A stretch of DNA of 64,000 nt. It comes from Ylistrum balloti. Taxonomy: Eukaryota. Position 1 is the first letter of the stretch, and the number at the start of each line of letters is the position of its first letter. The stretch spans positions 620,001-684,000 of the forward strand of contig NW_026782303.1 in assembly GCF_031769215.1 (NCBI RefSeq). The letters run 5' to 3'. The translations under genes and the position numbers were made by a program. The notes beneath the pieces were generated by a model, which was not told the origin of the DNA, ran no database searches, and saw only the letters and a list, made by a program, of their open reading frames with translations. Below are positions 1-25,454 of the stretch, piece after piece.

Positions 1-3000
1 TTCTGGAACAAAAGCTAGGTGTATTTCAACTATTTTGATGATAAAGAAGTTACCAATTTTAATATAAAGTTTATGTATTTATCAATATCTTAGGCACCAC
101 GCCATTAAGCGTTTACAAGTTCACTGAGGTTTCTCTAGATACTTCATTAAATGTTACTTTTCATAAAAGACTTAAAAGTGATGAAATACTACGGCGGAAA
201 TATTCTTCACGAAATGAAGTGCACCAAAGGTGTCAGAAGTGTGCTTAGAAGAATGCTGTTCATTTGAATAGATGAATTTTTATCCACAGAAGGAAAATGA
301 AACATGAAGGAATAAAGGTTAAAATATTAAATATGAGAATTCTTATAGTTTAAACGGTCCATCAACAAAGAAAAGTTCATCAGGGCCAGCTAATGGCAGG
401 TTAAATGTTCTTAAATGATACGACATAAGGAGACTCACATATATAAACATGTAGTTTAAAAATATCACAGTATTAAATCATATCTTCTGGTATAGATTGA
501 TACCTCTCAGATCTGAGAACTGATTGAAATATTCCGTGTACTGATTTTAAATAAGACTTCTATCATTGTTCTGCCAATTGCCTTACTTCTCACGTATAAA
601 ATATTCAAACGCACTGTTATGCAATGTGGACAAAAATAAAGGACGAATGAATTAGTTATAAAAAATAACGAAATACATGTGCTAACTGTTGGAATGAATA
701 ATGACGATAACGATATTATATCCATATTTATAATTGCAGCACTAGTAAATCTTTATTGTCTTAAAAACACAAATCAATTTATAATAGATATTATGATATT
801 TTGAAATTTCATATGGAAGAAAAAATATTATATTAGAACGAAAAGATTTACACGCAGAAATCTTCAAAAGTAAATAGATGATAGGACCAGGTGTTTTGTA
901 AAAGTAGTCGTCTTCAACTTAGTTAACGACACAGGAATTTTGGTGTATCTGAATTAGTCGTGTTTCCAAATGACAACAGGTCTAACAACGACCAGACATA
1001 TCTCCCAACAAGATCATGACATCATAATGGTATCCCAAAAATCACATGTTGCAAATAAATTATTGTCCCCTTACTAATACACAGCGGAGAACAATGGAAA
1101 TACTTTGAGATGAAGCAGGAAACAATTATCAAGAAGTGTACAAATTTTATATAAAAACTGATTCCTGAACAAGGAACGATACAACGATATATAATAAAAT
1201 AACAAAACGTGAAAGACTAATAGCACGTCACTATAGCTTCTTGTTTTTTTTTCTGATCTGCCTGTTAATGCCCTTCACTTTTATTTGTAAAACGGTTGCT
1301 ATGTATGACCTTCAGCTCTATATGGGAAAAAAGCTTGTAATCTATTTCAATTCCCGTCACTGCATACAATGATTGCCTCCTGTTTCATCACATAATAAGG
1401 TTAACACAAATATCCCAATATCAAAAATACCTAACTGACGGTAATAAAGTAAAAGTAATCATAATGAATGCTTTAATATTCAAATTTCATAGGGATTGAA
1501 GATTTCAGATATGTTTGTATCGTTAGCATTGGCCTAGCTTTGTTTAGAAAAACGAAGACGTAGGAGAGATAGTATTTGATTTATTCGTTTGAAATATCTA
1601 CATATCATTTTTATCGATACTCTGCTTTTCTTATCTTAATTTCTTATCGCAATGATGCTTCATATATCATAGCAAACGTTCGTTTTATTCTTTCAGCAAG
1701 CAAAGAGTTATTCCATCAGTAAATTATCTAATGCATAAAAGGAATATCAATTTTAACATTAAACCACATGAAAGGAAGAACAAGCATCATATTTACAGAT
1801 TTTATGTGCATTGAATGAAAATTCAAGGACATACTTCCGATTGTACGTTAGTTCCAATACTTTTATATCAGTAGTCTTTTAAATTCCTTACTCTCAGTCG
1901 TAAAGACGAATCTTCATATTAATGGCAATAATAATTTTCTCATTTCCCGTTTATCTTTTACTTGGTAGCAAAAAGCTACTTTGAATGAATGTAGATAAAG
2001 TTTTGATTTTGATTCTTCTGTTAAATTTCAACACATTCTATTGTAACTTAAACGTTTTATCTAAACCATAAACCAAGCAAAAAATCTATGTAACGAGGGA
2101 AAAGTTTTAAAAGATTCAAGGCTTATATGTTAATTTATTTCGCGTGCCTTTTAAATTCAAAGTTGTCCCCATTTTTGCTACGTTGAAATTTTCGCATACA
2201 TAAGTTTATGCATAATGCGAATTGTTGTGAGATTTTCATTCAATGTAGAAATGTTCACCAAGTACTGATTTATCCGCATTCATTATTGACCGCTCATAAA
2301 ATGAAATTCCCGCAAATATTACCAAATACACAGTACATAGTTCCCTAAAAGCATTACATAAATGTTTCCTTCTGGACTACCTTCTAGTAGAATCCATCAT
2401 TCTGTACCAGCTGCAATGATATACAGAGGAGAGGCGATTTCTAAAGTCAGCTAGAAAAGTACAAGGTGAAGAAAGGGATTTTGACGTCCATTTATTAATT
2501 CCACCCGACATGCCCATCACATGATAGGTAATTATCGTAATTCTATATTGGGTTCATATGGTAACAACACTTAAAAACTTGCAATCATTTGTAGCATTGA
2601 ACATTTATATCATCAACAAAAATTGAAGTGATAAACATCCAATAACCGAATTCCCCTTGAAAGTTTCATAATACGACCAAATCGAAATATGTGCTGTTTC
2701 ATGTCGATTTTATTTCTATTAACTCCTACCACTTGTTTGTCTTTTGAAAACCTATATTGAAAATAGAATAAGCGCACGTAAGCAATGTAGTTTCATTTTA
2801 CACAAATATGTATCATCTCGAATAAATACCCGTGCCTATAACATATGTTATTTTGGCAATTGTTTTGTATCTTTTTTGAAATACAAATGAGCGTTTACCT
2901 GTTTTGACAAGTCATTTTGAAGGTTATAGTAGTAATTTTGCGCAGCAAAACGAGAACCAGACAGGGTTCGTAACATTCAAAATTAATGATAAACAATCCT

Positions 3001-4279
3001 CTGTCAGATAAATGTGCATTATCTTCTTTTTTGTAATCATAATTGTAGTGTTCCTTTCAAGGTCGTTATTATTGAGCAGATTCATCACATTGTCTGTGTT
3101 AATTTGGCATTGTATTACGTATTAAGAAAACAATACACCATTGTTTTTACAACATTGCCTTAGTTTCTATAGAATATCTTTGGCGTAATGAATTTGCTTT
3201 ATTACCCATTTTCAACGCTATTTCACCGATTATTTCGTGGTAATGTATTTCAAGCATAACGCAGCGAATGTTTTTGCTTGTTTAATAATAATTTTTGCAC
3301 TTCATTTTATTAATAATAGCGTAACGGTTACCAATGTCATTACACATGAGGGAAATCACTGAAAAGCAATCAGCAGAAAATCACAATTTCTTTCAACACT
3401 GTCAACAATTTAGTTTAACAAGGTGCAAAGATTAAACATTGATACTATTCGGTAGTTATACAAATAATATTTAATTTTTTTCTTGGTGTCCTTATTTTCA
3501 CGAGTATCACTTCATTACGCGATATCTGTCTTTAATTAACCATCTTGTGTTGTCCGTCGTGCATAGAATTCTCATATATCACAACTAGCATCGACTTCAA
3601 ACATCCCTGAAATGATCTTTAGATGGTCTTTACCAGCATCTGCATGGCATCGATATCGACTATTTCGTAACAGAATCGCAAAATCATGTTTTTTATGAAC
3701 AACACTTATTCTGAGTTTTCAACGTCGTAAAAGACAACGGTGGTATTCCGCTTTAACTGGTGTTTCTACAACCACTCCTGCCATTTCATCATTCAAAGAA
3801 CTTGATAGACGGGCACCAATGACCTCTTGTGTTTCTGGGTTAAACGTCCTGAAGACAACCAGAGTCATAAGAGGAAGGGCGTCAAAAGTCACATCAAGAA
3901 TGAAAAACAAAGCAAGACAGAGCCAGATAGGAAGGAATGGAAAATATTCAGATATTCAGTTTTACAATAGGGACAGCAGATATATTCTGGTTGCTTTAGT
4001 GCTTCCATATTAAATGAATCAAAACAAGATATTGTAGAGAAATAGAGCCAAATATCATCTCTGATCTCATCCAGCCGCGAAAGAAATTGTCGTCATGCAT
4101 TTGTTCTATTTTGTACTTGTTGCTGCAGAAAAGAAAACATGCATGTGCACAACCTATTTAAAAGTATAGTACAGAAAGGTCTGCAATTATCATCCAGTTT
4201 TACATCAGGGAAATCATTAAAAATCTAATAACGATAAATGCTCCTAAGATGCGACGAAAGTTTGGCCCCTGCAGAATCA

Positions 4280-4920
4280 GGAATTAAAATTTGTTTCCCA
4301 TATGATGACATGAAAAAACAATTATAACAGAAGAGCACATTTGGGATTATTAAAATATTTTTTTCTCTCTGTATTTGTTTTACTCCGTGACCTCTAAAAC
4401 GCCCGTCCTTATATTCAATGGCGATGGCGTTAACAAAAATAACAACGTTAATGACATTTTCCGATCGGATATTACCTTCAATTAATGCTGTTAACATGCT
4501 GCGGATTTATACGATATTTGAGGGTCTGTTCTCATTATCACGATTTTCGTGCAAGAAGGCGTCAACTGTCGGACACGTAACGCCGGGTCACAAAGATGCA
4601 GGTTGATGAAAATTGATGAAATGTTTTATGGTCGTCATAGTGACCTCATTAAAATATATTCTATTTCTTTGTCAGATATAAAGCTTCTTTTTCTCTTTTT
4701 CTCGTCACTTATTTTGATTGACCAATATTTATATGGTGGGTATCGCCGATGATGAGGACGCCTCCGGAACTCATGGTCTTATTCTTCTTGTACATTATCA
4801 TGAGTCTCCATGAAAACCTTTCTTTTGTTCATATTTTGCCCTGTTGATCTTTATTGATCTGGAGTTTGGATTATGATTATGTTGATATGTTCGTATTTTC
4901 GTGTTTTTTCTAACGACATA
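4280..4920 (+). mobile_element. Penelope-like RT 3' relic
   Basis: IRYLRVCSHYHDF (about 4510-4550) and FYGRHSDLIKIYSISLSDI (about 4625-4680), then the shared 3' module (GATGAGGACGCCTCCGGAAC..GGTCTTATTC). Confidence 0.7.
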
Positions 4921-5492
4921 CTATATAACATTGATGCTTTCCCTTATGTCTATATTACAACAATAGTCGAATTTGTTATGCAAGTATCACATTTATAAGT
5001 ATGATATTGAAGGCATAATTCTTCAGAACTAGGTTTGAATCAGCATCATCATCATTGCATTCTTAAACAATGATTGCCACGCAAAGTTATAGTAATGCTT
5101 GATCTCTTACAAGAACTAAGGTATCAACTGAGGTATTATTCTCTGCAAGACTTTGATTTAATGAAAGATGAAATCTACAATGTCCATTTTATGCATTGCT
5201 AAAGCAACCACTCTATACAAAGAACTCACCATTGCACCTGCAAATGACGTTCACTTCATCGCATTAATTTTTTAGTTGTTTTTTTATATATCCCTTTCTG
5301 TGAACGCCTTTTCCAGGTTTTGTTTGGACTTAATCTTGATCTTTATTTATTTTTAAATTTTTTTTTTCTTTCTGCTTTTGTATGACATTTCAAACTAAGA
5401 GTCAATGTCTGTATTCAGATAAAATTAGGGTTAAATCCATCCAGTGGTTACAAATATTAATTTTCTAAATATATTTTGACTTCCTAGTACCC

Positions 5493-5713
5493 ATTTTGTT
5501 TTTGTCCAAAAATAAGTGTTCTTTTGAAATTTACGAAAACTAATCAAACAACGAAATGACGCACATTTTCATCGCGACCACATCAAGGAGATGTAATGGA
5601 AAAAACAATCTCACATCTCCTTGATGTGTTCGCGATGAAAATGTGCGTCATTTCGTTGTTTGATTAGTTTTCGTAAATTTCAAAAGAACACTTATTTTTG
5701 ACAAAAACAAAAT
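5493..5713. repeat. Near-perfect long inverted repeat (arms 102/101 bp, 18-nt loop)
   Basis: 5493-5594 is the reverse complement of 5613-5713 apart from one mismatch and one 1-nt indel. Confidence 0.95.
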
Positions 5714-5882
5714 AGGTTCGAACTGGACGGAGAATAACACAATTATCATAATTGGTTAACAATCTTATTTGTCATTTGTAATGAAGATTTTATTAATTAT
5801 ACCATAACACATTGAAACAATTACTATGCCCTTACAGCACATCTTTCCTTTATGAATGCAACGCACACAACCCCATGCACTA

Positions 5883-6130
5883 TTTAGCTCACCTGGATCA
5901 AAGGAATACCAAAATTCTGTACAAGTTTGGTATGAGGCATCTTTGATTGATTTCATCTGGGGCGGAAGGGGTGGGGCTCAATTCAATAGGATCCCTAGAT
6001 TGGACATAAGGTACTTTTTAAAAATTGTTCGTCTGTGGAAATGACAGAATTATGCCCTAATTTGATCTGAAACATTCCTTGAAGATAGGAACCCGATTTA
6101 ACTGATATCTCTTTGACCATAAGACCATAT
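5883..6130 (-). mobile_element. HINE-like relic
   Basis: TTTAGCTCACCTGG terminus followed by degenerate satellite-like core sequence (AAGTTTGGTATGAGGCATC, GGGGTGGGGC). Confidence 0.4.
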
Positions 6131-9100
6131 ACTAGATGGATAATATTACGCAAGGTATTTTTTTCATTTTTCTTTGTTCAATGACTTAATAGCCAAATTA
6201 GCCAGGGAAACGATACAGGTCCCATGGGTCTCTTGGTTCTTCTGTTATTCCTCTACTTTTTATGGTGGAATTAACAACGTATCTATGATTCAAAGATTCA
6301 ACGATGCATTAGAGTATATTTTAAGATTACATGTTTTTATCGCAACAGATGGTGTAATGAAAAGGTCGAGCATCTTATCTTGTTACGCTTGCCTATATGA
6401 ATGATGTAACAGTTGCACAGAGAATAACTTTATCTTAAAACTAGTAGGCATTCTGGACATGCAAGCGTAAGAAATTCGTATTGGTATAGCTGCAAATGTT
6501 TTGAAACCTGCAATCCGATCCGTATATTAGTTTGAGATGCATCAAAGGAAATACTGATAAGGTATTTCAAAGCATGTCGCGGACAACGGACATCGTATTT
6601 ATTATACTTTGACCAGTGTACTTGTAATTGCGTATCACTGTAGTGACCATGTCTTCAATGACCGCCATCATCACGCAACATGTTCCTCAGCTAGAACATA
6701 CATCACAAGTACACAACAGCAAAATTAGAGATGTTCATTAGCTTCGCAACAATCTCAAGGAAAGCATAATGATACTTGCTTAAATTGAACAAACTTATTA
6801 CTAGACGTACATATAAATGGGTCACTTAACGAAACATAAGCAAAACTTTAAGACTATACAAATGTTCTTAAGACATAATTTACCAAATGTATTAAGGTAT
6901 GGAGTTCGTGCACACTGTCTTTATTAAGACATTTGTTTCAACAGATTTTAATTGTCCTGATTATAACACATATTAAATACATTGAGATGCATTATTAATT
7001 TTAAAAAAAGTATTTAACTTCTTTCGAAAATAAACTCCAATTCATTAACACGTTTAGAAGACTTAAACCGGTCGGCCTATACACGACAAGATAATACTTA
7101 CCATGACAACCTTTTCCAGTTTTAATTGAATATCCGAGACATTTACATTTTTTGTTTGTTAGATCTTAAATTTTGACAATTTTATGATAAGCATTTCTTT
7201 GCCCTGATCACCTCTGTTTTGATTGGCTGTTCTGAATATGATAATTCAGAATCATGTTCTTACCATTACTAGTCGGTCATAAATGGACAAAACCTCGGAG
7301 TGAAACTCTTTTGGCATACATGTAGACTCTCTTAATTAAAATTGGCTTCAGTTCCACACTTTTTAAAAAGGCTTATATATATCGCAGTCTCACAAAGAAC
7401 AAACACCACGTACATCGGAGGACTGTCTTTAAACGACCAAACCTGGTTATAGGACATTGAAATATATAACCTTAACCAAACCATTCAATCTGTTAATTGG
7501 TATTAAAGGGAAAAAGGACATAGGTATGAAAGTAATAATTACACTTACTCAGGGGGTAGGTATAATGTGTAAACTGATAACAAATTCTACAATTACAGTA
7601 TGATTTGTTCGGAACAGTTCAAGAAGTCAGATGGATATGCTGATTCTAGTATATATCCGGAGTAGAGGATTTGGACATATTTTATCAACTGAACCTTAAA
7701 AAGTCATCTAACTTCACAAGTATACTCAAACCGAAAAGGCTGCATTACCTCAATACCTTCCGTCAACAGACGTAACATTAACCAAATATTCGTGTGATCT
7801 AGAAAATAAGATAAGTAAATAAACAGTTGAATGTTTTTTCCAACCGCAGACAACATCCATCACAAAACTACATTTCATAGTACCTTAATAAACTCTGATA
7901 AATGAAGTTTTGCTAAGGAGGATTATGTTATGTTAAATGTTTATTATACTGACACCTGTTTGTGATGCTATCGTTGAAAATCTCCGTTAAAGTATTATTT
8001 TAATGTATATTCCAACACAACTAGATACCATTTAATGTCTCCTTTCCTGCTTTTATAATGTACTATAGCAGAAATAATTATCAAGGAAGGTCATAAACTT
8101 CCTATCAAGCAATAATGTACTCTTAATTAAATGGAAGAATGCTGCTTTGTTGAAATGGATTACATGATCACAGATTTCTCTGACAGACACCTGTTACTGA
8201 TGTTATCGAGCATGTCAGATATTTCACTTTAATGTACGCATGAATTTACCAGCATGGTTGTTTATAACGGTATTCCATTATATTTTGAATAAGGAATTCA
8301 ATCATTTAATATCTTGGGTCGGTTCATCCTTTCGTCCTGAGACACTTCACTGGATAAAAAAAACATGAGGAGGCAGCACAAAACAGTTTTTTATGCCGTT
8401 ATCACATGCCACGATAATGGCGTCTACATCTTACATGAGGACGGTTGCCAGTTTCAATACAAAGAGATAGGGGAGGTCAGATGTATCAGACTTAAACGCT
8501 AAAACAAGTAAATTGAGATAAACCAAATACTTAAGTACAAATACACGTCACTTTTTTGCGGATGAAATATGCTAGCAAAGGCTATCAATTTTAGATTTAA
8601 GAAAAGCAAAGGTTTGATTTAAGTTTACTCTTTCGATCAAGGCTATGGGAAATGTCTATTTCAAAATTTCGAGCCAGCAGTTAGCAAACAATAAGAATAA
8701 CACATTGTTAATCATTGCCGCGTAATCTATCAAAATCCAAACAAGCTTACGGACGATAAACCAGCTTCATTGTAGCGTTAAACGCGATAGTGGCATTATA
8801 ATCTTTTGGTTATGGCTATGATCTGCGGCGATTATGTATTACGTTATATTTAAGTTGATATGGATATTTTTGACAAGTTACATTTCTGGACGTTCTGTAC
8901 ATTTCAAGAATCCCTTTTTTACATACCTTTTGAAGTATTGGAAGCATAAAAATTCTGAAACAATGATCACATGATTTTAATATTGAAACTAAAATGTTTT
9001 ATCCAATTATCAGCAAAGCGGTACAGTAATTAAAAGAACAATTTCTATCGTATGATTTGTCTAGAACGCGTGCATTACATACACAAATACATACAAAACA

Positions 9101-10240
9101 AATAAATACTGACATGCTTGTTTCTTATGTGACATTCTTCTTAAATCATCTGATATAGGCAAATCACAAAACATTTTAATTATGGGGCTAATGCACGTTC
9201 CCATTAAGAATTTTGCATATCTTTTATTTACAAATCAATTTTTAAGCCGCCTTCCAGATTTTAAAATATATATCTATATCACAACTGTTGAGTTCAAGAA
9301 GAAGGAAAACGCTGTATAATTCAGTTTAGTTGAAAGATTAGCTCTACTGAATATTTGTATTGAAACATGTCATTCACATGTATCGTTAGTACAATCTACA
9401 TAAGGAACATACCATTTAACCCGCCATATTTGTTTTCAGTCACACTGCGTATGCGTTAATGTTCTGTGATATATATATATTTATAATTTCTACTAAATTG
9501 AAGTTCTAAAGTTGGATTTTGTTTCGTAAAGAAGTGTGGGGTTTTCATACTACCACATGTTCAAATTATCCTTTTGATACTCCACTACCTCGATATCGCC
9601 TACACATAATCCATTTATTCATATGGCAAACAGTGCCTACAACAATATCAAATTTGTACCTGAAAGAGAAACCCCTGAAAATCAATTAGTCGCTAGCATC
9701 AGTTTTAGCCAACATAGGTGTTCGAACATCGCGATGTATCAGCTTCTGTTTAGTTGAAAGCGAAGCAGGTCAAATCATCGGTGACTCGGTGCATCGCAGC
9801 TACCCAAATCACACATACTGGTCATAAGCTTAATACATTTTAGAGATATTGAATTAACAAAATAAAACCAGTGATACATAATCTAAAAAGGGGGCTAAAC
9901 AGAACTGGATATTGTGAATAATACATTGTATATAAAAGAATGTGGGATACAAGACAAATGATCAGACCTTAACATGCAGACGTGATAGGAGAGAAAGTAT
10001 ATTGAGATTGCACTAGTCTCAACTAAAACTGAATACTTACATACATTCGGAAGAACATAGCATCACTGAAAAAATCACCCAAATATACATCTCGATTACG
10101 TTTTTGCCAGTGAAATATGGAGAAATATTGCATTAAGAAACGAGTAACACTTTTGCAGATTTAGACTAAGGAAAAAAAGAAATACAGATACCGGTACAAA
10201 AAACACAAAATAAGAAACCTGAGAGGTATTTACATGTAAC

Positions 10241-11690
10241 ATGACATTCAGTTCTGTGGTAAAACTTCATTTCCATAGAAGTCAGCAAACAACACAAGCC
10301 AGTAACTCAAGTTACCTTACCTTATCACCAACCGACCGTCTTGGAAGTGGAGCTAGGCATTTCAGGAGGAATCGTGTCATCGACAACGTTGTCTAGGTTG
10401 CCGCCATGTGAATATAAAAAATGAATATAAAATTAGTTTTTATGTTCATGTATTTTAAATGATTTAAAAATGAGACTATATTTTGTTGCATACCATTGAG
10501 TTATAATGAGTGAGAAGTGACCGCATAGTCAGCTTTAATATTGGTCCTAGATATGCGAGTAATTTGGCTATATTGTTTCTGAAAAAGTAATAAATAGTAT
10601 ATTAAATAGTGTCTGCCGTAATAACACACAGATTTCACTCATGTGTCCATATCTTTTCGTATCTTTCACGAGCGAAAAATACTAAAATAATAGACCAAAT
10701 TGGGAAATATACTTGTTATTACTGAAGACAAAATTAAATATCCTCTGTGTCTCCATAATGTTTTGTGCTATTGGTTTTGAACTATTGGCGATCATCTTAA
10801 TTATAATTCAAAGGTCTCTGGAGGATGAAGAGGCTATCTTACACTGTACTAAACTTTTGAACATAAATCCTGTTTTTATATAAATCTTCATTGGTGCAAA
10901 AATATACTAGCTCTGGATAACTCTTTAAACCTTGCTGTGATAAAATCATCATTATAATCATATTTCATTTTGATTCTGCTATTTCCCGTTCGGTCAATCA
11001 TTCTTAAAAGAATTTGCATCTATGTTAGGTATGATATTGTGCCCGTAGATAAGGCATCAAATAGTTCGATCCTTGTCTACAGTTGTAGACCAGGCTTACT
11101 TGAAGAAAATCCCATCTATACGTTATGTTTATTTTTCAAAAACGAAATACTCACCAATCACGTTTCAGTTTTAAAATCATAAATTGGCTATTGACAATAA
11201 GGATATGGACCTGCCTCATTTATCTTGGATTCGTAAACTTCCCCATATTCCATGTATACACCGTTTTATTGCTGTCTCGTCTAGCTGTTCAATCAGACCT
11301 TCTCCAATTTTTATGCACCATTCTTTGTACTCTCTAGATATGGTTAAAATGGTATTGTGATACTTTTAAGTTTCAGTAGTTGAATGACTGGTATGTTGAT
11401 TAAAAAGAAATCACAGGAGCATTTGACCACTTATTGAAACCATCGCCTAGAATACATTTCTTCTATAAGAAGATTCGATTGTACACCACCATGTCCCATA
11501 TTTAATTGAAATAACTTCGCTTCGTTCTGTTTTTTTTCAAAGAGAGGCTTTATTGAAGTGTATTTTGTAACAAACATGTCATGTCTTTAAATAACAATAT
11601 ATTTTAATTACCACATTGTACCTCATCTTATATACAGTGTCTCCCGCACAAATGGAAATCAAAGACACGATAGACTATTCTATCCCTTTC
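10241..11690 (+). repeat. Left copy (D1) of a ~1.45-kb segment duplicated on both sides of the LTR element
   Basis: ATGACATTCAG...TATCCCTTTC matches 15189-16636; 6 substitutions and 2 small indels counted by eye. Confidence 0.95.
10970..11690 (+). mobile_element. Degenerate Penelope-like (probably Naiad-type) RT relic, interrupted by the LTR element
   Basis: Frame-broken motifs RYDIVPVDKASNS, NPIYTL..KNEILTNH, DLPHLSWIRKLPHIPCIHRFIA, YCDT and PAQMEIKDTID, matching PLE RT patterns I recall (KYVxVPADKASNN, DLPxLYWIPKLHKxPYKxRFIA, YPxELEIKDT). Confidence 0.75.
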
Positions 11691-11693
11691 AGT

Positions 11694-12364
11694 TGTGGAC
11701 ACGGACATGTGTTTTAAGGTTTTGTGATGTTTATACCTTAAGAACAAACAGTGACAGTCTTACAGAAGTACCTTATCCAAGGAAGTTAACAGTATATTGT
11801 AGAATTTAGAATTAACTGTTGTTCAAGTAAACTTACCAGTGTTTGTGTACATACTAAATATTATCTCAGCCTGAGTATCATGAGCAGTTTGCTATCTCTG
11901 AACTTTTAGACCGTAAAAGTTTTCTTAGGCAGGGGGATGTTAATAGTGAAATTTGTCACTCAAGTGTAGAACATAATTTGTGTTAAATCTTAATGTGACT
12001 GGCTGGCTTATCAGACAGATAGTTTAATTGCGGTCACCTTAGTGTCAGAATCATGCCGTGAAACATTGGCTGGACATGCTCTCCACCATGGAGACATTAA
12101 CTGGTCACGGTTTAATTGTAGATCAGTAGAAGGCACTTTCCCTATCAGAATTAGATTATAATTGCTTTAGGATAAACTGTAAGATCACAGCAAATAGAGT
12201 CAGTCCTGGTGTGGCCGTGGAAGGAGTAACTTGTTAAGCTCGATACTCAGGCCATACATGTTATCATTGTTGTAACTTGTGTTAATACTCAACATTTGCA
12301 CTTGAGAACGGTTGTTGCTGGTCTTTTGTATAACATAAGGATAGTACAACATAGAGGGGTAATA
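11694..12364 (+). repeat. 5' LTR (671 bp)
   Basis: Begins TGTGGACACGGAC and ends GGGGTAATA. By eye it is identical to 14523-15188 over 666 bp except the penultimate base (T vs C). Confidence 0.9.
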
Positions 12365-12369
12365 TATTC

Positions 12370-12382
12370 TGGTGGCAGCGGT
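12370..12382 (+). promoter_or_regulatory. Primer-binding site, complementary to a tRNA-Leu-type 3' end
   Basis: TGGTGGCAGCGGT lies 5 nt after the 5' LTR. It is the reverse complement of ACCGCTGCCA+CCA, the 3' end I recall for metazoan tRNA-Leu(AAG); host tRNA not checked. Confidence 0.75.
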
Positions 12383-12447
12383 AAAGGATCATTCTAAGGA
12401 GAAGGACTCCGTTATCAAAGATATAACGCTCATTAGAACTGTTCAAT

Positions 12448-13497
12448 ATGTCGACGACTGAAGAAACGGAAACTGCGAAGATGACGGCAGCACAAACAAA
12501 GTTGGAAATAAGAAGACTCGAAATTCAAGCAGAGAAAGAGGAAAAAGAACGCCAAATGAATTTCGAAAGAGAAAGGATGACGATGGAAGTTGAAAGAGAA
12601 AAGATGAGAATGGACGCCGAAGAAAAGGAAAGAGAACATCAAAGGGAAGTGGAAAGAGAAAAGATAAGAATGGACGCCGAAGAAAAGGAAAGAGAACATC
12701 AAAGGAAAGTGAAAGAATTGGAACTAGAGATTGAAAAAGCAAAACTTCAAAAGGAACGGTGTGAGACAAATTCTAACCCTGTGCCGTTTAGACTGAAACT
12801 TCAACCTTATAATCATACTGAAAGTGAGGATATAGTGACATTCTTATCAGAGTTTACTGCTTTATCAACACAGGCTGGATGGACAGAAGAAGTAAAAATG
12901 CTACAGCTGAGATCCTTGTTAACAGGTGAGGCCAGAGAGGTAGCTATTCAAGCACATGGGTCATTTGAAGAACTTTGTAAAGCCCTAATGGACAGGTACG
13001 GGAAAAGGCCCTACCAATATTTCAAGCTATTACAGACAGCCCAAAGGGAACCTAAGGAAACATACAGAGGACTTATGGCAAGAATTGAACAATATCTTAC
13101 TAGATTTGTGGACTCAGTAGAGGATGTCATGGAAAAATTCAAAGAGGAATATTTTCTTAGTGCATTGCCAGTGTCACAAGCACAATGGATACGCCGTAAC
13201 AAAGGGTCAAGCAGTGTGGTTGAAGCCGCAGAGGATTATATTCTACCTGAACGGAATATAAACAAATCAACGCAAGGTAAAAGTATAAATGGAAAAACTT
13301 TTACCTCTGATCGGGACCAGAGAAAGGAGCAATCGACAGAGCAAATGAAAAGTGTGCAGTGTTACAATTGTAACAAGTACGGGCACTTCGCGAGGAAATG
13401 TCCAAAAAACAGAGAAGGTAAAAAATCTTGCAGGATTTTTAGTGCGACAATACACGGGAGGACTTATCCATGTCCCAGGAGAGGTCAATGGCCGTGA
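12448..13497 (+). CDS. gag: Retrotransposon Gag (349 aa): N-terminal E/R/K coiled coil, capsid region with SCAN-like C-terminal segment, CX2CX4HX4C zinc knuckle
   Basis: Uninterrupted ORF after the PBS. CYNCNKYGHFARKC is at 13360-13401. EEYFLSALPVSQAQWIRRNKGSSSVVEAAEDY resembles the SCAN/Gmr1 capsid pattern EQFL..LP..+..W+. Confidence 0.9.
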   Translation: MSTTEETETAKMTAAQTKLEIRRLEIQAEKEEKERQMNFERERMTMEVEREKMRMDAEEKEREHQREVEREKIRMDAEEKEREHQRKVKELELEIEKAKLQKERCETNSNPVPFRLKLQPYNHTESEDIVTFLSEFTALSTQAGWTEEVKMLQLRSLLTGEAREVAIQAHGSFEELCKALMDRYGKRPYQYFKLLQTAQREPKETYRGLMARIEQYLTRFVDSVEDVMEKFKEEYFLSALPVSQAQWIRRNKGSSSVVEAAEDYILPERNINKSTQGKSINGKTFTSDRDQRKEQSTEQMKSVQCYNCNKYGHFARKCPKNREGKKSCRIFSATIHGRTYPCPRRGQWP

Positions 13498-14551
13498 TAT
13501 TAGTTTCGTGAAAGACACTGGGTCAGCGATGACCTTGATTAGGGAAGATCTAGTGGACCCAAGTTGTGTATTGGAGGGTCAGCGGGAGACGCTGTGTACA
13601 GCGACTGGACAGCCGTTTTCAGCCAAACTGGCTATCGTTGATATGGACACGCCATATTATAAGGGACATGCTCAGGTCGGATTAGTGCCTGACCTTGTCG
13701 CTGAAGCCCTGTTGGGGGTAGACATCATAGAGAGACAATCAAAGGCTGTGAATGTTGTTACGCGTGCACAACATCGTAATAACATTGCTGAAGAAAGGCT
13801 AGCTGAGGACAAGGCAAAGGAATGCCATGTAAAAGTTGGAATGGACCCCGACACGGACCAAGTGGATGCCAGTAAGGGAAGTGATGTTGGACAGGCGAAC
13901 GATGTGGACCTGGACCATGGCGATGGCGTTGGTGAGGACATTGACAACATCAGTGAGACTGTATCCCACAGCAATGGGGATGATACAGTTAACATCACAA
14001 CAGAGGAACCGCTTGAACTTTCTGCTGTAAATGCTGAAGTGCTTAGTAAGCTTCAGCAGGAAGATCCAACTTTAGCCAACATTCGGAGAAAAGCTGCAAG
14101 TTCAGAGGAATCTGTGCAGGAAGATAGGAATGCCCTGTACTGGGAAAATGGGATTCTCCGTAGGAAATGGGAGTCTAGTGATGGAGCCAAACATGGAGTC
14201 CAGGTAGTACTACCAGAGGCACTACGTCTCAATATCATTAAATTGGGACATGATAGACCACTTGCGGGACATTTAGGGATAGAAAAGACCAAAGAGCGTG
14301 TCTTTAATTCGTTCTATTGGCCAGGGATTTTTAAGGACATACAGGAATACTGCAGTACTTGTAACGTATGTCAAAAGACCGCCAGAAGACGTGGTGACGA
14401 GAAAGCTCCATTAGGACAACCACTGATCATCAGTGAGCCTTTTTACAAAATAGCTATGGATATTGTTGGGCCACTGTCTCGAACAAAGAAGAAGAAAAAG
14501 AAGAAGAAAAAAAAAAAAAAGAACACGGACATGTGTTTTAAGGTTTTGTGA
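13352..14551 (+). pseudogene. pol: Truncated pol: aspartic protease, acidic linker, integrase HHCC domain and first catalytic Asp; ends in 12 Lys codons and reads into the 3' LTR
   Basis: GEVNG..FVKDTGS (DTG at 13514-13522), VVTRAQ and QQEDPTL linker motifs, HDRPLAGHLG...CNVC (14249-14371), AMDIVGPL (D at 14459-14461). No YxDD RT or RNase H. The listed start is an in-frame GTG inside gag; real pol-like sequence starts around 13405-13426. Confidence 0.88.
14485..14523 (+). other. 39-nt purine-only (AAG)n/poly(A) filler at the internal deletion junction
   Basis: AAAGAAGAAGAAAAAGAAGAAGAAAAAAAAAAAAAAGAA lies between the integrase codons and LTR position 6; A14 run at 14507-14520. Confidence 0.85.
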
Positions 14552-15188
14552 TGTTTATACCTTAAGAACAAACAGTGACAGTCTTACAGAAGTACCTTAT
14601 CCAAGGAAGTTAACAGTATATTGTAGAATTTAGAATTAACTGTTGTTCAAGTAAACTTACCAGTGTTTGTGTACATACTAAATATTATCTCAGCCTGAGT
14701 ATCATGAGCAGTTTGCTATCTCTGAACTTTTAGACCGTAAAAGTTTTCTTAGGCAGGGGGATGTTAATAGTGAAATTTGTCACTCAAGTGTAGAACATAA
14801 TTTGTGTTAAATCTTAATGTGACTGGCTGGCTTATCAGACAGATAGTTTAATTGCGGTCACCTTAGTGTCAGAATCATGCCGTGAAACATTGGCTGGACA
14901 TGCTCTCCACCATGGAGACATTAACTGGTCACGGTTTAATTGTAGATCAGTAGAAGGCACTTTCCCTATCAGAATTAGATTATAATTGCTTTAGGATAAA
15001 CTGTAAGATCACAGCAAATAGAGTCAGTCCTGGTGTGGCCGTGGAAGGAGTAACTTGTTAAGCTCGATACTCAGGCCATACATGTTATCATTGTTGTAAC
15101 TTGTGTTAATACTCAACATTTGCACTTGAGAACGGTTGTTGCTGGTCTTTTGTATAACATAAGGATAGTACAACATAGAGGGGTAACA
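14523..15188 (+). repeat. 3' LTR (666 bp, lacking the first 5 nt TGTGG)
   Basis: Matches 11699-12364 and ends with the canonical CA (GGGGTAACA). Confidence 0.9.
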
Positions 15189-16636
15189 ATGACATTCAGT
15201 TCTGTGGTAAAACTTCATTTCCATAGAAGTCAGCAAACAACACAAGTCAGTAACTCAAGTTACCTTATCACCAACCGACCGTCTTGGAAGTGGAGCTAGG
15301 CATTTCAGGAGGAATCGTGTCATCGACAACGTTGTCTAGGTTGCCGCCATGTGAATATAAAAAATGAATATAAAATTAGTTTTTATGTTCATGTATTTTA
15401 AATGATTTAAAAATGAGACTATATTTTGTTGCATACCATTGAGTTATAATGAGTGAGAAGTGACCGCATAGTCAGCTTTAATATTGGTCCTAGATATGCG
15501 AGTAATTTGGCTATATTGTTTCTGAAAAAGTAATAAATAGTATATTAAATAGTGTCTGCCGTAATAACACACAGATTTCACTCATGTGTCCATATCTTTT
15601 CGTATCTTTCACGAGCGAAAAATACTAAAATAATAGACCAAATTGGGAAATATATTTGTTATTACTGAAGACAAAATTAAATATCCTCTGTGTCTCCATA
15701 ATGTTTTGTGCTATTGGTTTTGAACTATTGGCGATCATCTTAATTATAATTCAAAGGTCTCTGGAGGATGAAGAGGATATCTTACACTGTACTAAACTTT
15801 TGAACATAAATCCTGTTTTTATATAAATCTTCATTGGTGCAAAAATATACTAGCTCTGGATAACTCTTTAAACCTTGCTGTGATAAAATCATCATTATAA
15901 TCATATTTCATTTTGATTCTGCTATTTCCCGTTCGGTCAATCATTCTTAAAAGAATTTGCATCTATGTTAGGTATGATATTGTGCCCGTAGATAAGGCAT
16001 CAAATAGTTCGATCCTTGTCTACAGTTGTAGACCAGGCTTACTTGAAGAAAATCCCATCTATACGTTATGTTTATTTTTCAAAAACGAAATACTCACCAA
16101 TCACGTTTCAGTTTTAAAATCATAAATTGGCTATTGACAATAAGGATATGGACCTGCCTCATTTATCTTGGATTCGTAAACTTCCCCATATTCCATGTAT
16201 ACACCGTTTTATTGCTGTCTCGTCTAGCTGTTCAATCAGACCTTCTCCAATTTTTATGCACCATTCTTTGTACTCTCTAGATATGGTTAAAATGGTATTG
16301 TGATACTTTTAAGTTTCAGTAGTTGAATGACTGGTATGTTGATTAAAAAGAAATCACAGGAGCATTTGACCACTTATTGAAACCATCGCCTAGAATACAT
16401 TTCTTCTATAAGAAGATTCGATTGTACACCACCATGTCCCATATTTAATTGAAATAACTTCGCTTCGTTCTGTTTTTTTTTTTCAAAGAGAGGCTTTATT
16501 GAAGCGTATTTTTTAACAAACATGTCATGTCTTTAAATAACAATATATTTTAATTACCACATTGTACCTCATCTTATATAGAGTGTCTCCCGCACAAATG
16601 GAAATCAAAGACACGATAGACTATTCTATCCCTTTC
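15189..16636 (+). repeat. Right copy (D2) of the duplicated flank; continues into the uninterrupted original sequence
   Basis: Starts immediately after the LTR terminal CA. The duplicated ORF-track hits 10970/15913 and 11125/16068 confirm the copy. Confidence 0.95.
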
Positions 16637-16930
16637 CTCGATTTTTTCCTACAACGAAACCAACATAAACATCATTCCACCAAGCTGTATGATGATCGTT
16701 ATGATGTCAGTTTCACTGTTGTATAATTTCTGTTTCTGGCTAGAAGCATCCCTACGTGCCAAACTATGGTGTTTACATATCACAGTTGTTTCGGAATTCA
16801 AGGGTATTTTCTTAATTTCACAGTGGTCATGAGAGATGTCGACAACCTTACAACACAGAGTTTCGAGAGAATCCAGTTGATCAAAATGATGGGGATTTTC
16901 TTAGGTAGTCATGATGATCTCAGGGAAAAG
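15913..16930 (+). mobile_element. Degenerate Penelope-like RT relic (uninterrupted copy)
   Basis: Same motifs as 10970-11690, continuing past 16636 as MEIKDTIDYSIPFLDF...STKLYDDRYDVSF, NYGVYISQLFRNSR and FLGSHDDLREKYS. Confidence 0.8.
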
Positions 16931-18084
16931 TATTCTCCTTCTGCTTTTTGTATGCATGCAACTCTTTCCTTGGTAAATGTTTTGCGTTTTAACTCTATTG
17001 AATTTGACTTTTGATTGATATTTTATCAATATGTTGACATTTTCTTTGTTCTTCTTACAGCCATATCTTCTTTTAGTGCTCTATCAAAGTGCATTTTCTG
17101 CTTCACTCAGGAACTTCTAAAACTTAAACTAAAGTGTATTTGGTGTGCGATTCAAAAATGCCATGTAGGCATTGCTTTCCCTTATCTAACTACATATCCG
17201 TCTACATATTTTTTCTACTGATAAATTCTTTCTTTAAAGTTATTTTAAAGTATCTGTAATCGCCTCTATTTCTTTTTGTTTGGTTGATGTTTCATTTTGG
17301 AATTTTGTCCATCATTTCAATGACCGAATGGCATTTTCTGTGTTGACGGGCCGCTCAAAATGTAAAAAAAAAAGAGCAACAATTATCCTTCATCGTTACA
17401 AGTACCTATATGTGTTAAGCGACGTAAGACTTATCAATTAATCAAAAGATGAATATATTTTCGAATATATAAGTAATACGATACTCTCTGTATAAAGAAA
17501 CCAACTCCTAAGCTTTTAATCAAACTCAACCAGAGCCAGAGGTTACACGCTTTGATTCTATAGCGTATCATGGCCGTCAAATTTCCCTATTATATCTGAA
17601 ATAAACCTTGAGGCCCGGATGTCATTTCACGATAGGGCCACTCTCTGTTCAGAGGATCGGAGTAATATTACCACTAAATGAAGACAGAAATCTGTGTTTT
17701 AGAACGAAGCTTAATTATCCTTGAACGTATCCTCTTTAATGTGATACCTAGGTCCGTGATTTGTCTGATCTTTGCCGACTTAGAGGGATCAAGATATTGA
17801 CAGCTAGAACCAATATGTGTCTTCATTTAGAATCACACGAAGAGACTAACGGGACAATGTTTTATCACTTACTTCCGGGTTCTATTTTTTGTGATTTTCT
17901 TTTCAATTGTGTTTTATTCACTCAAACTAGAGACGATTAAATACCTTGGGGCTTTTTCTGTTTTCTTAACAAACTGTTTCTGTTTGAGAGCACCTGTTCT
18001 GTGCATTCTGTCCGAAAAGACCTATTGTTGATGGGTCGTAAATCAATAAAAAAAAAGAAGGAAAAAACCCTCCCTCCGAGACTG

Positions 18085-22786: not shown

Positions 22787-23254
22787 CTTACCGTGCTGTT
22801 TTTTCAACCTCGCAAGTATAAATGTATCACATTTCTACTTCAGAAATTGAAGAACAGTTGTTTAATGTCAATATCCGTTCGCTTACAGTGCTGTTCTTTC
22901 ACCCTCGCAAATATAAGTGAATCACATTTCTACTTCAGAAATTAAGGAACAGTTGTTTAATGTCGATGTCTGTTCGCTTACCGTGCTGTTCTTTCACTCT
23001 CGCAAGTATAAGTGTATCACATTTCTACTTCAGAAATTAAAGAACAGTTGTTTAATGTCGATGTCTGTTCGCTTACCGTGCTGTTCTTTCACTCTCGCAA
23101 GTATAAGTGTATCACATTTCTACTTCAGAAATTAAAGAACAGTTGTTTAATGGCAATATCCGTTCGCTTACCGTGCTGTTCTTTCGTCATCGCAAATGTA
23201 AGTGTATCATGTTTCTACTTCAGAAATTAAATTGTTTAATGTCAATGTCCGTTC
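22787..23254. repeat. Minisatellite, about 4.9 copies of a 95-bp unit
   Basis: Unit starts (C[C/A]GTGCTGTT) at 22791, 22886, 22981, 23076 and 23171; the last unit is partly deleted. Confidence 0.95.
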
Positions 23255-25454
23255 TGCATGCGATTTCATGATCACAAACGATGGCTCCTTTTGATGTCGC
23301 CCACTTAACGATGTATTAATTTCTCTACAGAGGTTCATGTTATCTGCCTCTTTAAATTGTGCACATATCAAAAGCATCTAGTTGCACACTCTATTCGTTC
23401 CACACTTAGAAACACAAAACTTGAATCAGATCTGTAAAATACGTGCTGTATATAATCTCATTTCATGTCTTGGGTCTCGAATATATCTGCAATTCCAGGT
23501 AATTAAAAAACAAAAACGGATCGGGGCGCCTTAAAAGCATCATTTATTTGTCCAGGTGACAGGAAAATCGAAACAAATGCACAAACATGCCACTTGACAT
23601 AAAATCGATAGTAGTTGTGAGACACCCTTGACACAGAGTAAAGACACTGAGACAAGGCTGTCCTTACGAGTTATCATCTCGTGAGCACGAGAACATAATT
23701 CATACGCACGAGAACGAAAAATATTTGTGTGTCACTAATGGGGTTCCGTTCTTGCCATTTTCCGTTTGAACATGTAGGATCGTTGATATTTCTTTCACTT
23801 GAATTTTTTCAAAAGAAAATAACTTACGAGAGTGAAAGAAATAACATACATGTATATAATAACCGTGAGCTCGAGTTTGTCTGACCCGTTTCTTCTTTAG
23901 TTAAAAAAGACCTGTTCTGTACCCAAAGTGTGTTTTGTTTACGTCATTAGTTAAGATGCAAACTGAAACTTTCATCAGAAAAAACTATGTAGATATTGTA
24001 ATTCATGAAACAATATAACTAGAAATGAAATAGTTTGTTGTATTTTAGCCGAAAAGGATTGAAAGCCGAATAAAAAATCTAATCTCTACTAAAACAATCG
24101 AGAACTACTTTAACAACAGCTTATTCAGTGTCTAAATCCGGTATGGGACTATAAACCCGTTTTGGTTAACTCTTATTCATATAACTTAAGCCTAGCTAGA
24201 TTGTGATCAGTGAAAAAAACAATAGTGTTACTCTCGTCCTGAAAGTGCTCTAAGAACCTAAATGTGCCCTTTATAATATTGAGGAAATACGTCATAAATT
24301 TAAGAAAATTACATTTACCTACGCCTTCACAATACCTTACCATTATTTCGAATTAAGAGACTTTATTTGTTCATCCAATTTTACACAATCATTGCATTTG
24401 TAACTTGTCTAGGATTAAAAGACAATTTACGTCTAATGTAGTGAGGAAAGCCGTAAAGCTATGTGTAATCAACAAACTGATTATAAACGATTCCACAGGA
24501 ATATTTGGCGGTAGTCTGAACTTTGGAGAAAATTCTAGGTATATCTCTGCTGACAAATTGAGTTAAATATCGTACAATGAAATTACATTTAATGCATAAC
24601 TTTGCTGTGTTAGGATTGTAATTGCATTATTTCAAACAGAAACTGGTCTAAATAAAAATTGTTCATTCAGCTTGAAGCGATTTTGTTAGTGTCGTTTATT
24701 TTCCCATTTGCATGATGGCTCAAATCCCTATATACGTTAAATTAAATGACTTTTATGTGAAGTATGCTACTCCTATACAGCCTTGTCGCAAGGCTAAATC
24801 GAAATGATTTTCCACAGCAATTGTATCAGAGGTTTTAAAAACGTATCACACCAGCTAGCTTATGTTCTCTCGACCTTGAAATAAAAATCTACAACACATA
24901 TCTAGTCGAGGTTTCAGATCCACCAGTTGACCAATCTCCACAATACACATTACATCTCTCTGGATCTTTTAAAATATTAAGAACCCGCGATGAATTCAGC
25001 TATAAATTGTCTAGCGATTTTATTCATTTGAAACCCTGCGTGGCTAAGAAACATATAGACGGTGTTCTGTAAACATAGGCTCCTAGGACAGGAAGAGTAG
25101 ACCATAAGCTGAAACCTAAAGCGGACAACTGGGACTAGAATGCATTTGATCACCGTAAGTTGTTGCTTGTGTATAAATCATGTAAAATCTATGCGGCCTA
25201 TTTTAACTAAAACCCTTAAATACCCTCTTTCAGATGCAACATGACTCACTCTAAGAAAATTTAAAATATCTGTAGGTTATAGGAAACGGAGAATTGTTAA
25301 GAATAACAGGATGTAATAGAGCAAATAATGATGATTGTTATTGTAATTACTACAGTATATTGCCAGAGCATCAAATTAGGGCTAAACTATCTATTGTAAT
25401 AACGTTAATGGTAAATAATGTAAATTGTGCATTAATTGTAATTGTAGGTTAGGG

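What the first reader, a model, noticed from the sequence alone, without database searches (positions are those of the whole stretch)
10241..16636. LTR element flanked by a 1.45-kb duplication instead of a short TSD, with asymmetric junctions (possible natural one-ended integration)
Seen: the order is D1(10241-11690)-AGT-LTR...LTR-CA-D2(15189-16636). The right junction is a precise CA end. The left junction has 3 nt (AGT) that are absent from the uninterrupted copy, which reads CTTTC|CTCGAT. No 4-6 bp TSD exists. D1 and D2 differ by about 6 substitutions and 2 indels, while the LTRs differ at 1 of 666 sites. There is GTAAC(A) microhomology between the LTR end and the sequence just before D1. 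Established: for retroviruses (RSV with a defective end, HIV-1 under sub-optimal integrase inhibitor), integrase can insert one end while host repair joins the other, producing large target duplications. Inference: this may be such an event in an invertebrate retrotransposon, with AGT a leftover of an unprocessed cDNA end and D copied from the other allele. Alternatives are recombination between two insertions on different haplotypes, or false tandem assembly of two alleles.
Basis: partly seen in the sequence, partly recalled or inferred. Interest (0 to 1): 0.75.

Follow-up and report, generated by a model that had tools for sequence, protein, structure and literature searches.

The report
Mis-ended retrotransposon inside 1.45-kb duplication
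A defective, probably scallop, retrotransposon sits between two copies of a 1.45-kb stretch of host DNA, with one clean end and one end overlong by 247 bases of its own 3' region, likely because only one end was inserted normally and host repair joined the other, an accident already seen with retroviruses; an assembly error is not excluded.

Summary
The layout is real: D1 (10241-11690) and D2 (15189-16636) differ by 6 substitutions and 2 indels, and there is no short TSD. Contigs of other individuals show the family LTR is 427 bp (11938-12364, 14762-15188). The 247 nt to its left are a second copy of the element's own 3' UTR and PPT. AGT is native element sequence, joined to D1 over a 2-nt overlap (TC), not an unprocessed cDNA end. 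The element is a non-autonomous Gmr1-type Gypsy copy (gag, protease, half an integrase, a purine run, no RT); two other scallop loci carry the same deletion. The empty site with a single D is present in other individuals. Best reading (0.45): an overlong left end, likely primed or copied near the upstream purine run, could not be used by integrase; the CA end was inserted and repair duplicated 1.45 kb. Rivals: assembly join of two haplotypes (0.18), rearrangement of a tandem element (0.17), capture at a break without integrase (0.15). No read from the source individual could be examined. Natural long duplications are known for HERV-K (61-450 bp), so this is a variant of a known kind.

The parts
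10241..11690 (.). D1, left copy of the duplicated host stretch
   Evidence: single and uninterrupted in other individuals
10236..10242 (+). Target word GTAACAT spanning the insertion point; equals the LTR end plus the first spacer base
   Evidence: 9 occurrences in 64 kb
11689..11690 (+). TC shared by the end of D and the element: 2-nt overlap at the left junction
   Evidence: X1 record 4 against the empty-site contigs
11691..11937 (+). Extra 5' piece, 247 nt: second copy of the element's 3' untranslated region and PPT (11927-11937); begins with the AGT
11938..12364 (+). True 5' LTR, 427 bp, starts TGTTA, ends TA instead of CA
   Evidence: loose-end clusters and depth
12370..12382 (+). Primer-binding site, 5 nt after the LTR
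   Evidence: same 13-nt motif in L004, L008, L035, L037-L039, L069; tRNA-Leu identity is recalled, not tested
12427..13497 (+). gag frame with CCHC zinc knuckle; frame break towards the protease in this copy
   Evidence: continuous in P0123 and P0002
13349..14484 (+). Protease followed directly by the N-terminal part of integrase, cut off early in the core; no RT or RNase H
14485..14523 (+). 39-nt pure purine run at the internal deletion joint; longest in the element (next is 19 nt)
   Evidence: a lysine run at the same joint in P0001 and P0121
14523..14761 (+). 3' untranslated region and PPT (14751-14761); lacks the first bases present in the left copy and in P0001/P0121
14762..15188 (+). 3' LTR, 427 bp, TGTTA...TAACA, joined directly to D2
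15189..16636 (.). D2, right copy of the duplicated host stretch, continuing into the native flank

Best explanation
This is a non-autonomous Gmr1-type Gypsy retrotransposon copy with one exact CA end and one end that carries 247 extra bases of its own 3' region, lying between two copies of a host stretch that is single in other individuals; it likely arose when integrase inserted only the CA end and host repair joined the overlong end 1.45 kb further along. Shown: LTR limits, origin of the extra piece and of AGT, the shared internal deletion, the empty site. Inferred, step by step: (1) the cDNA got an overlong left end, either because plus-strand synthesis started at the purine run upstream of the normal PPT (the break lies about 22-29 nt downstream of that run in sister copies), or because a free LTR end copied the element's own 3' LTR, PPT and UTR until it stalled near the run; (2) such an end does not start with TG and would be a poor integrase substrate; (3) integrase supplied in trans joined the CA end at 10240/10241; (4) repair synthesis copied D and closed the gap over the 2-nt overlap; (5) the right-hand UTR lost its first ~35 nt during or after the event, and D1, D2 and the LTRs then drifted.
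For: LTR = 427 bp from flank clusters in 4 of 4 runs; depth over the extra piece (212-448) equals depth over gag/pol (206-475) while the LTR bins are several-fold higher, so the piece is once per element in the family. AGT and TC are native. Both copies of UTR+PPT+LTR are identical over 664 nt and share states that differ from the family majority at 11761, 11890 and 12299, so they come from one element. Empty site in 3 of 4 runs laid (the fourth laid nothing) and contigs across the left D border in 3 of 4. Relatives make 5-bp TSDs (5 of 6 complete elements; 4 bp in one), so this locus is abnormal for its kind. A break within 40 nt of the purine run has about 1.7% chance if uniform over the internal region. 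HIV/ASLV experiments give the same anatomy: one normal end, an aberrant end often carrying extra viral sequence and short homology, duplications of hundreds to thousands of bp (PMC5041404).
Against: No run holds either junction, and no long read was available, so the structure rests on one assembly. The left copy holds 8 nt that the right copy lacks, so the model needs a second small deletion or a second template. The target matches the element end over 5-7 nt (0.0008 and 0.00014 per site), which integrase does not need and which points to repair at the right end as well, although the junction has one A more than a plain overlap join. A 2-nt overlap is weak (TC = 5.6% of sites). D1/D2 divergence is within the range of alleles. 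Purine-run priming is untested; no other copy with an overlong end was seen.
Confidence: 0.45

Rival explanations
1. Assembly artefact: an empty haplotype (left flank + D1) was joined without Ns to the inside of a tandem element carried by the other haplotype at 10241.
For: D1/D2 differ as alleles might (outside alleles differ from D1 at 10 or more sites in D and from each other at 1-3 or more listed sites). UTR-PPT-LTR-PBS is exactly what the middle of a tandem looks like. Neither junction is seen in five deep runs. The break is near a low-complexity run. Bivalve assemblies are prone to haplotig duplication (search listing only).
Against: No N in the window; only 2 nt of overlap at the join, too little for an overlap-based misjoin; needs a tandem element plus a private deletion in one unit; D1 and D2 share five states (10627, 10966, 11060, 11410, 11639) against all three outside alleles, though a distinct population would give that too.
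Confidence: 0.18
2. Later rearrangement: a tandem (shared-LTR) element inserted normally at 10241; a break near the purine run then removed its first unit, and aborted gap repair from the empty homolog copied D before rejoining.
For: Explains the PPT-LTR-PBS order and allele-like D1/D2. Shared-LTR complexes are known (PMC1950507), tandem copies of a distant relative occur in L022/L023, and aborted SDSA closed by polymerase theta gives duplications of median ~1 kb (PMC8654963). Kahyo et al. raise similar pseudo-TSD routes (PMC5488345).
Against: Needs two or three rare steps; no tandem or normal-TSD allele seen at this site in five runs.
Confidence: 0.17
3. No integrase at all: cDNA was captured at a chromosome break, both ends joined by short homology, and the same repair made the tandem duplication.
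For: 5-7 nt match between target and element end at the right junction, 2 nt at the left. Integrase-independent Tf1 insertions use homology to the cDNA ends (PMC11042837 section 8).
Against: The junction has one A more than the overlap join predicts, and equals a precise CA join; the flank right of the LTR does not match the PBS as in Tf1.
Confidence: 0.15
4. Unequal crossing-over between two independent insertions, one at each end of D on different haplotypes.
For: A known route to element-centred duplications (recalled); fits allele-like D1/D2.
Against: The left junction is not an LTR end; the two UTR-PPT-LTR copies are identical over 664 nt while sister copies differ from this one at 9 of 636 residues.
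Confidence: 0.05

Closest known systems
Aberrant one-ended proviruses of HIV-1 (sub-optimal inhibitor or weak integrase) and ASLV with one bad end (PMC5041404; passages and Discussion read)
   Same: One exact end, one repair-made end that can carry extra element sequence and short homology; host duplication of hundreds to thousands of bp.
   Different: Those are laboratory events with known cause; this is an inherited locus of an invertebrate retrotransposon, the bad end is extended by its own UTR and PPT, and the event itself was not observed.
HERV-K (HML-2) loci with long target duplications, 61-450 bp, including a truncated provirus with 111 bp (PMC5488345; abstract, results and Discussion read)
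   Same: Natural LTR element flanked by a long duplication, with an empty allele in the population and the same doubt between true long TSD and later rearrangement.
   Different: Here 1.45 kb (their search range was 4-500 bp), a Gypsy element in a mollusc, and an extended rather than normal or truncated end.
Gmr1-type Ty3/Gypsy elements (definition from passages of PMC8220671); nearest proteins from Ylistrum balloti and Pecten maximus
   Same: Integrase upstream of RT in full-length relatives, TG...CA LTRs, same PBS motif, G-run PPT.
   Different: This copy lacks most of integrase, RT and RNase H, and lacks the 5-bp TSD.
Three-LTR complex elements (PMC1950507; first half read)
   Same: A PPT-LTR-PBS arrangement at the left LTR.
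   Different: Only two LTRs and one core, and no flanking short TSD.

Membership tests
Gmr1-type Ty3/Gypsy | Integrase lies upstream of RT | tested here: met
   Integrase follows protease directly in the window; in P0002 (84% identical) IN 594-764, RT 1066-1223, RNase H 1289-1417, and likewise in P0003 and P0005. RT is absent from the window copy itself.
Gmr1-type Ty3/Gypsy | RT groups with the Gmr1 clade in a tree | not tested
   No reference Gmr1 sequences were fetched and no tree was built.
LTR retrotransposon | TG...CA LTRs, PBS after the 5' LTR, PPT before the 3' LTR | tested here: met
   the 5' LTR ends TA through one change.
Normal integrase insertion | 4-6 bp TSD at both LTR ends | tested here: not met
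   0-1 nt in the window against 5 bp in 5 of 6 complete relatives (L039 read by eye, where the script overshot the LTR end).
One-ended aberrant integration | One end exact at CA | tested here: met
   15188/15189; a homology-guided join would give nearly the same sequence.
One-ended aberrant integration | Other end abnormal, with large host duplication or deletion | tested here: met
   247-nt extension, 1.45-kb duplication, empty allele with single D.
One-ended aberrant integration | Short homology at the abnormal junction | tested here: inconclusive
   2 nt only.
One-ended aberrant integration | Insertion and duplication arose in one event on one molecule | not testable with these tools
   No reads of the source individual; divergence of D and of the inner repeat are compatible with one age (p = 0.44).
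Three-LTR complex element | Three LTRs, two cores, short TSD outside | tested here: not met

The most novel reading that the evidence does not exclude
The deletion that made this non-autonomous lineage also built a long purine run that acts as a second plus-strand primer. Its cDNAs then often get an overlong left end that integrase cannot use, so the lineage would repeatedly insert by one end and duplicate kilobases of host DNA: a self-made, heritable source of segmental duplications in a wild animal.
Probability: 0.2. Interest if true: 0.65.

Novelty: new variant of a known kind. Interest (0 to 1): 0.38.

Why it matters
If real, it is a natural germ-line example, outside retroviruses, of an insertion accident described in cell culture, with a built-in candidate cause (an upstream purine run) and a duplication about three times the longest HERV-K case in the paper read. 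Such loci are missed by LTR finders that require a short TSD and can look like false duplications in heterozygous assemblies. As a single unconfirmed locus, with no gene found in the part of the duplication scanned, its weight is modest.

Tried and rejected
No whole genome is held for the window, so other copies could be seen only through run contigs and protein records. 'AGT as unprocessed end' and '666-bp LTR' rejected. I first read the extra piece as the last codons of pol; rejected because full-length Pol ends differently and an 89% relative has 265 or more nt of UTR after the stop, weakly alignable to it. I first took the internal deletion and purine run as part of this insertion event; rejected because P0001 and P0121 have the same joint; whether the deletion is shared by descent or recurrent is open. 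A 24-nt PPT/LTR pattern found nothing in viral contigs. A near-length protein search found no second copy with the window's shorter right-hand joint (cluster representatives only). Six-frame Pfam scan of 15900-17600 (half of D2 and its flank) found nothing credible; the first 700 nt of D were not scanned this way. A bacterial promoter scan is irrelevant. Consensus loose ends were too mixed (agreement about 0.5) to give this family's own TSD or target preference. Earlier findings: none. No paper on a natural case in an invertebrate LTR retrotransposon turned up in searches; the library lacks most subscription papers and no supplements were read.
Full report
Observation. The window holds a 1450-nt stretch (D1, 10241-11690) repeated at 15189-16636 (D2) with 6 substitutions and 2 indels, and an inner repeat 11699-12362 = 14523-15186 identical over 664 nt, then one T/C difference. 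There is no N in the window and no short TSD at the junctions. Between the repeats lie a gag frame with a zinc knuckle and a frame with protease followed directly by the integrase zinc-binding domain, cut off early in the core by a purine run. No genome is held for the window.

Identity of the element. The nearest proteins are from scallops: P0001 (Ylistrum balloti record, 97%), P0002 (84%, unnamed, full length), P0003 (Pecten maximus). In P0002, P0003 and P0005 integrase lies before RT and RNase H, the order that marks Gmr1 elements (passages of PMC8220671); no tree was built. Two other Y. balloti records, P0001 and P0121, run from the same point of integrase into a lysine run and then into the same 3' stretch, while the other two cluster members continue through integrase. 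The internal deletion is therefore a trait of several non-autonomous copies and not a product of this insertion.

Nine public runs hold part of the region, none more than 0.63 of its words, so probably none is the source individual. In the four laid first (X1, X2, X3, X9), 9, 8, 8 and 9 contigs with unrelated flanks begin at 11938, and 10, 11, 11 and 10 end at 12362 followed by CA (that table was cut). Position 11938 starts TGTTA and follows a G-rich tract, as in complete relatives. Contig depth over 11722-11960 (212-448) matches gag/pol (206-475), against about 9-17 for single-copy contigs and 2000-6800 in the LTR bins. In X4 a 2118-nt contig of depth 322 continues 2 kb upstream of 11722. An 89% relative has at least 265 nt of UTR after the pol stop, weakly alignable to this stretch. 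So the LTR is 427 bp, and the left end carries 247 extra nt: a second copy of the 3' UTR and PPT.

The left junction. X1 record 4 matches 11689-11728 without a difference and continues upstream into sequence shared with two other single-copy contigs, not into D. The translations of P0001 and P0121 pass through the same stretch. AGT is thus element sequence, and TC (11689-11690) belongs to both partners. From those proteins the break lies about 22-29 nt downstream of the purine run; a break within 40 nt of it has about 1.7% chance if uniform over the internal region. The window's right-hand copy has lost roughly 35 nt here, including the 8 nt that start the left copy, and has a 39-nt pure purine run, the longest in the element.

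The empty site. Contigs reading D-end then the native right flank are present in 3 of 4 runs laid (X1, X2, X4; X5 laid nothing), and contigs cross the left border of D uninterrupted in 3 of 4. No listed contig bridges 11690/11691 (24 of 57 pieces shown) and no LTR-end-to-D-start joint is listed in 4 of 4 runs; contigs show presence, not absence. D1 and D2 share five states against all three outside alleles; outside alleles side with D2 at 10834 and 11559 and with D1 at 11635 and the 5-nt indel; three sites could not be polarised. D (6 of 1445) and the inner repeat (1 of 666) are compatible with one age (p = 0.44), and also with D1 and D2 being alleles.

What is normal. Of 78 related loci, 43 were 5 kb or longer and were scanned; 15 had a flanking repeat; 6 had both LTR ends with flanks. 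Five of these 6 have a 5-bp TSD and one 4 bp, and none has a 5' extension. These are distant relatives from other animals; this family's own TSD could not be read.

Mechanism. The simplest single event is an overlong left cDNA end, from plus-strand priming at the upstream purine run or from a free LTR end copying the element's own 3' region, followed by integrase joining the CA end and repair synthesis copying D. All of this is inference. It matches the aberrant HIV and ASLV proviruses, where one end is normal, the other may be joined to extra viral sequence over short homology, and duplications reach thousands of bp (PMC5041404, passages and Discussion; the ASLV papers it cites were not read). 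Aborted SDSA closed by polymerase theta gives duplications of median about 1 kb in C. elegans mutants (PMC8654963, passages). Against it: the model needs the later loss in the right copy; the target matches the element end over 5-7 nt, which favours repair at that end too, as in integrase-independent Tf1 insertion (PMC11042837, abstract and section 8), though the junction has one A more than an overlap join; and the left end looks like the middle of a tandem element (PMC1950507, first half; tandem relatives in L022/L023), which keeps later rearrangement and a haplotype misjoin alive.

Novelty. Natural long duplications around LTR elements are in print for HERV-K, 61-450 bp, one around a truncated provirus, with the same doubts about later rearrangement (PMC5488345). 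Duplications of median 900 bp flank a non-LTR element in Chlamydomonas (one passage, PMC9977147). I found no report for an invertebrate LTR retrotransposon or for an end extended to an upstream purine run (searches; open-access library only, supplements not read). Verdict: a new variant of a known kind, one locus, physically unconfirmed; interest 0.38.

Noticed in passing
window 11938-12362: Summed contig depth over the LTR is 2000-6800 against about 210-470 for the internal region, suggesting many solo LTRs or a high-copy derivative sharing this LTR.
   Followed up: no
window 13165 joined to 12330: A single-copy family member in X1, X3 and X9 jumps from mid-gag into the LTR end with 9 extra letters: another truncated copy shared by three samples (table 5c).
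   Followed up: no
window 12363: The only LTR difference hits the terminal CA of the 5' LTR (TA), which would give any progeny a poor right end (inferred).
   Followed up: partly
window 11650-11682: A short high-copy motif (summed depth about 1000) ends 8 nt before the right end of D.
   Followed up: no
window 10596-10744 and 15539-15687: Imperfect hairpin repeat inside D, high-copy in the runs (depth about 900), MITE-like.
   Followed up: no
window 5489-5717: 229-bp near-perfect inverted repeat (94%), MITE-like.
   Followed up: no
window 22787-23261: Tandem array of a 95-bp unit, about 5 copies.
   Followed up: no
window 4.7k, 16.7-17.0k, 20.3k, 33.6k, 37.4k, 48.4-50.1k, 55.1-56.3k, 60.2-62.0k: A decayed interspersed repeat family on both strands, 65-85% alike; one copy abuts the right end of D2; no Pfam hit at that copy.
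   Followed up: partly
L022 and L023 (one contig): Head-to-tail copies, unit about 5.8-5.9 kb, 96-98% alike, of a distant relative of this element.
   Followed up: partly
window 12585-12716: 60-nt tandem repeat in gag whose copy number differs among family members.
   Followed up: no
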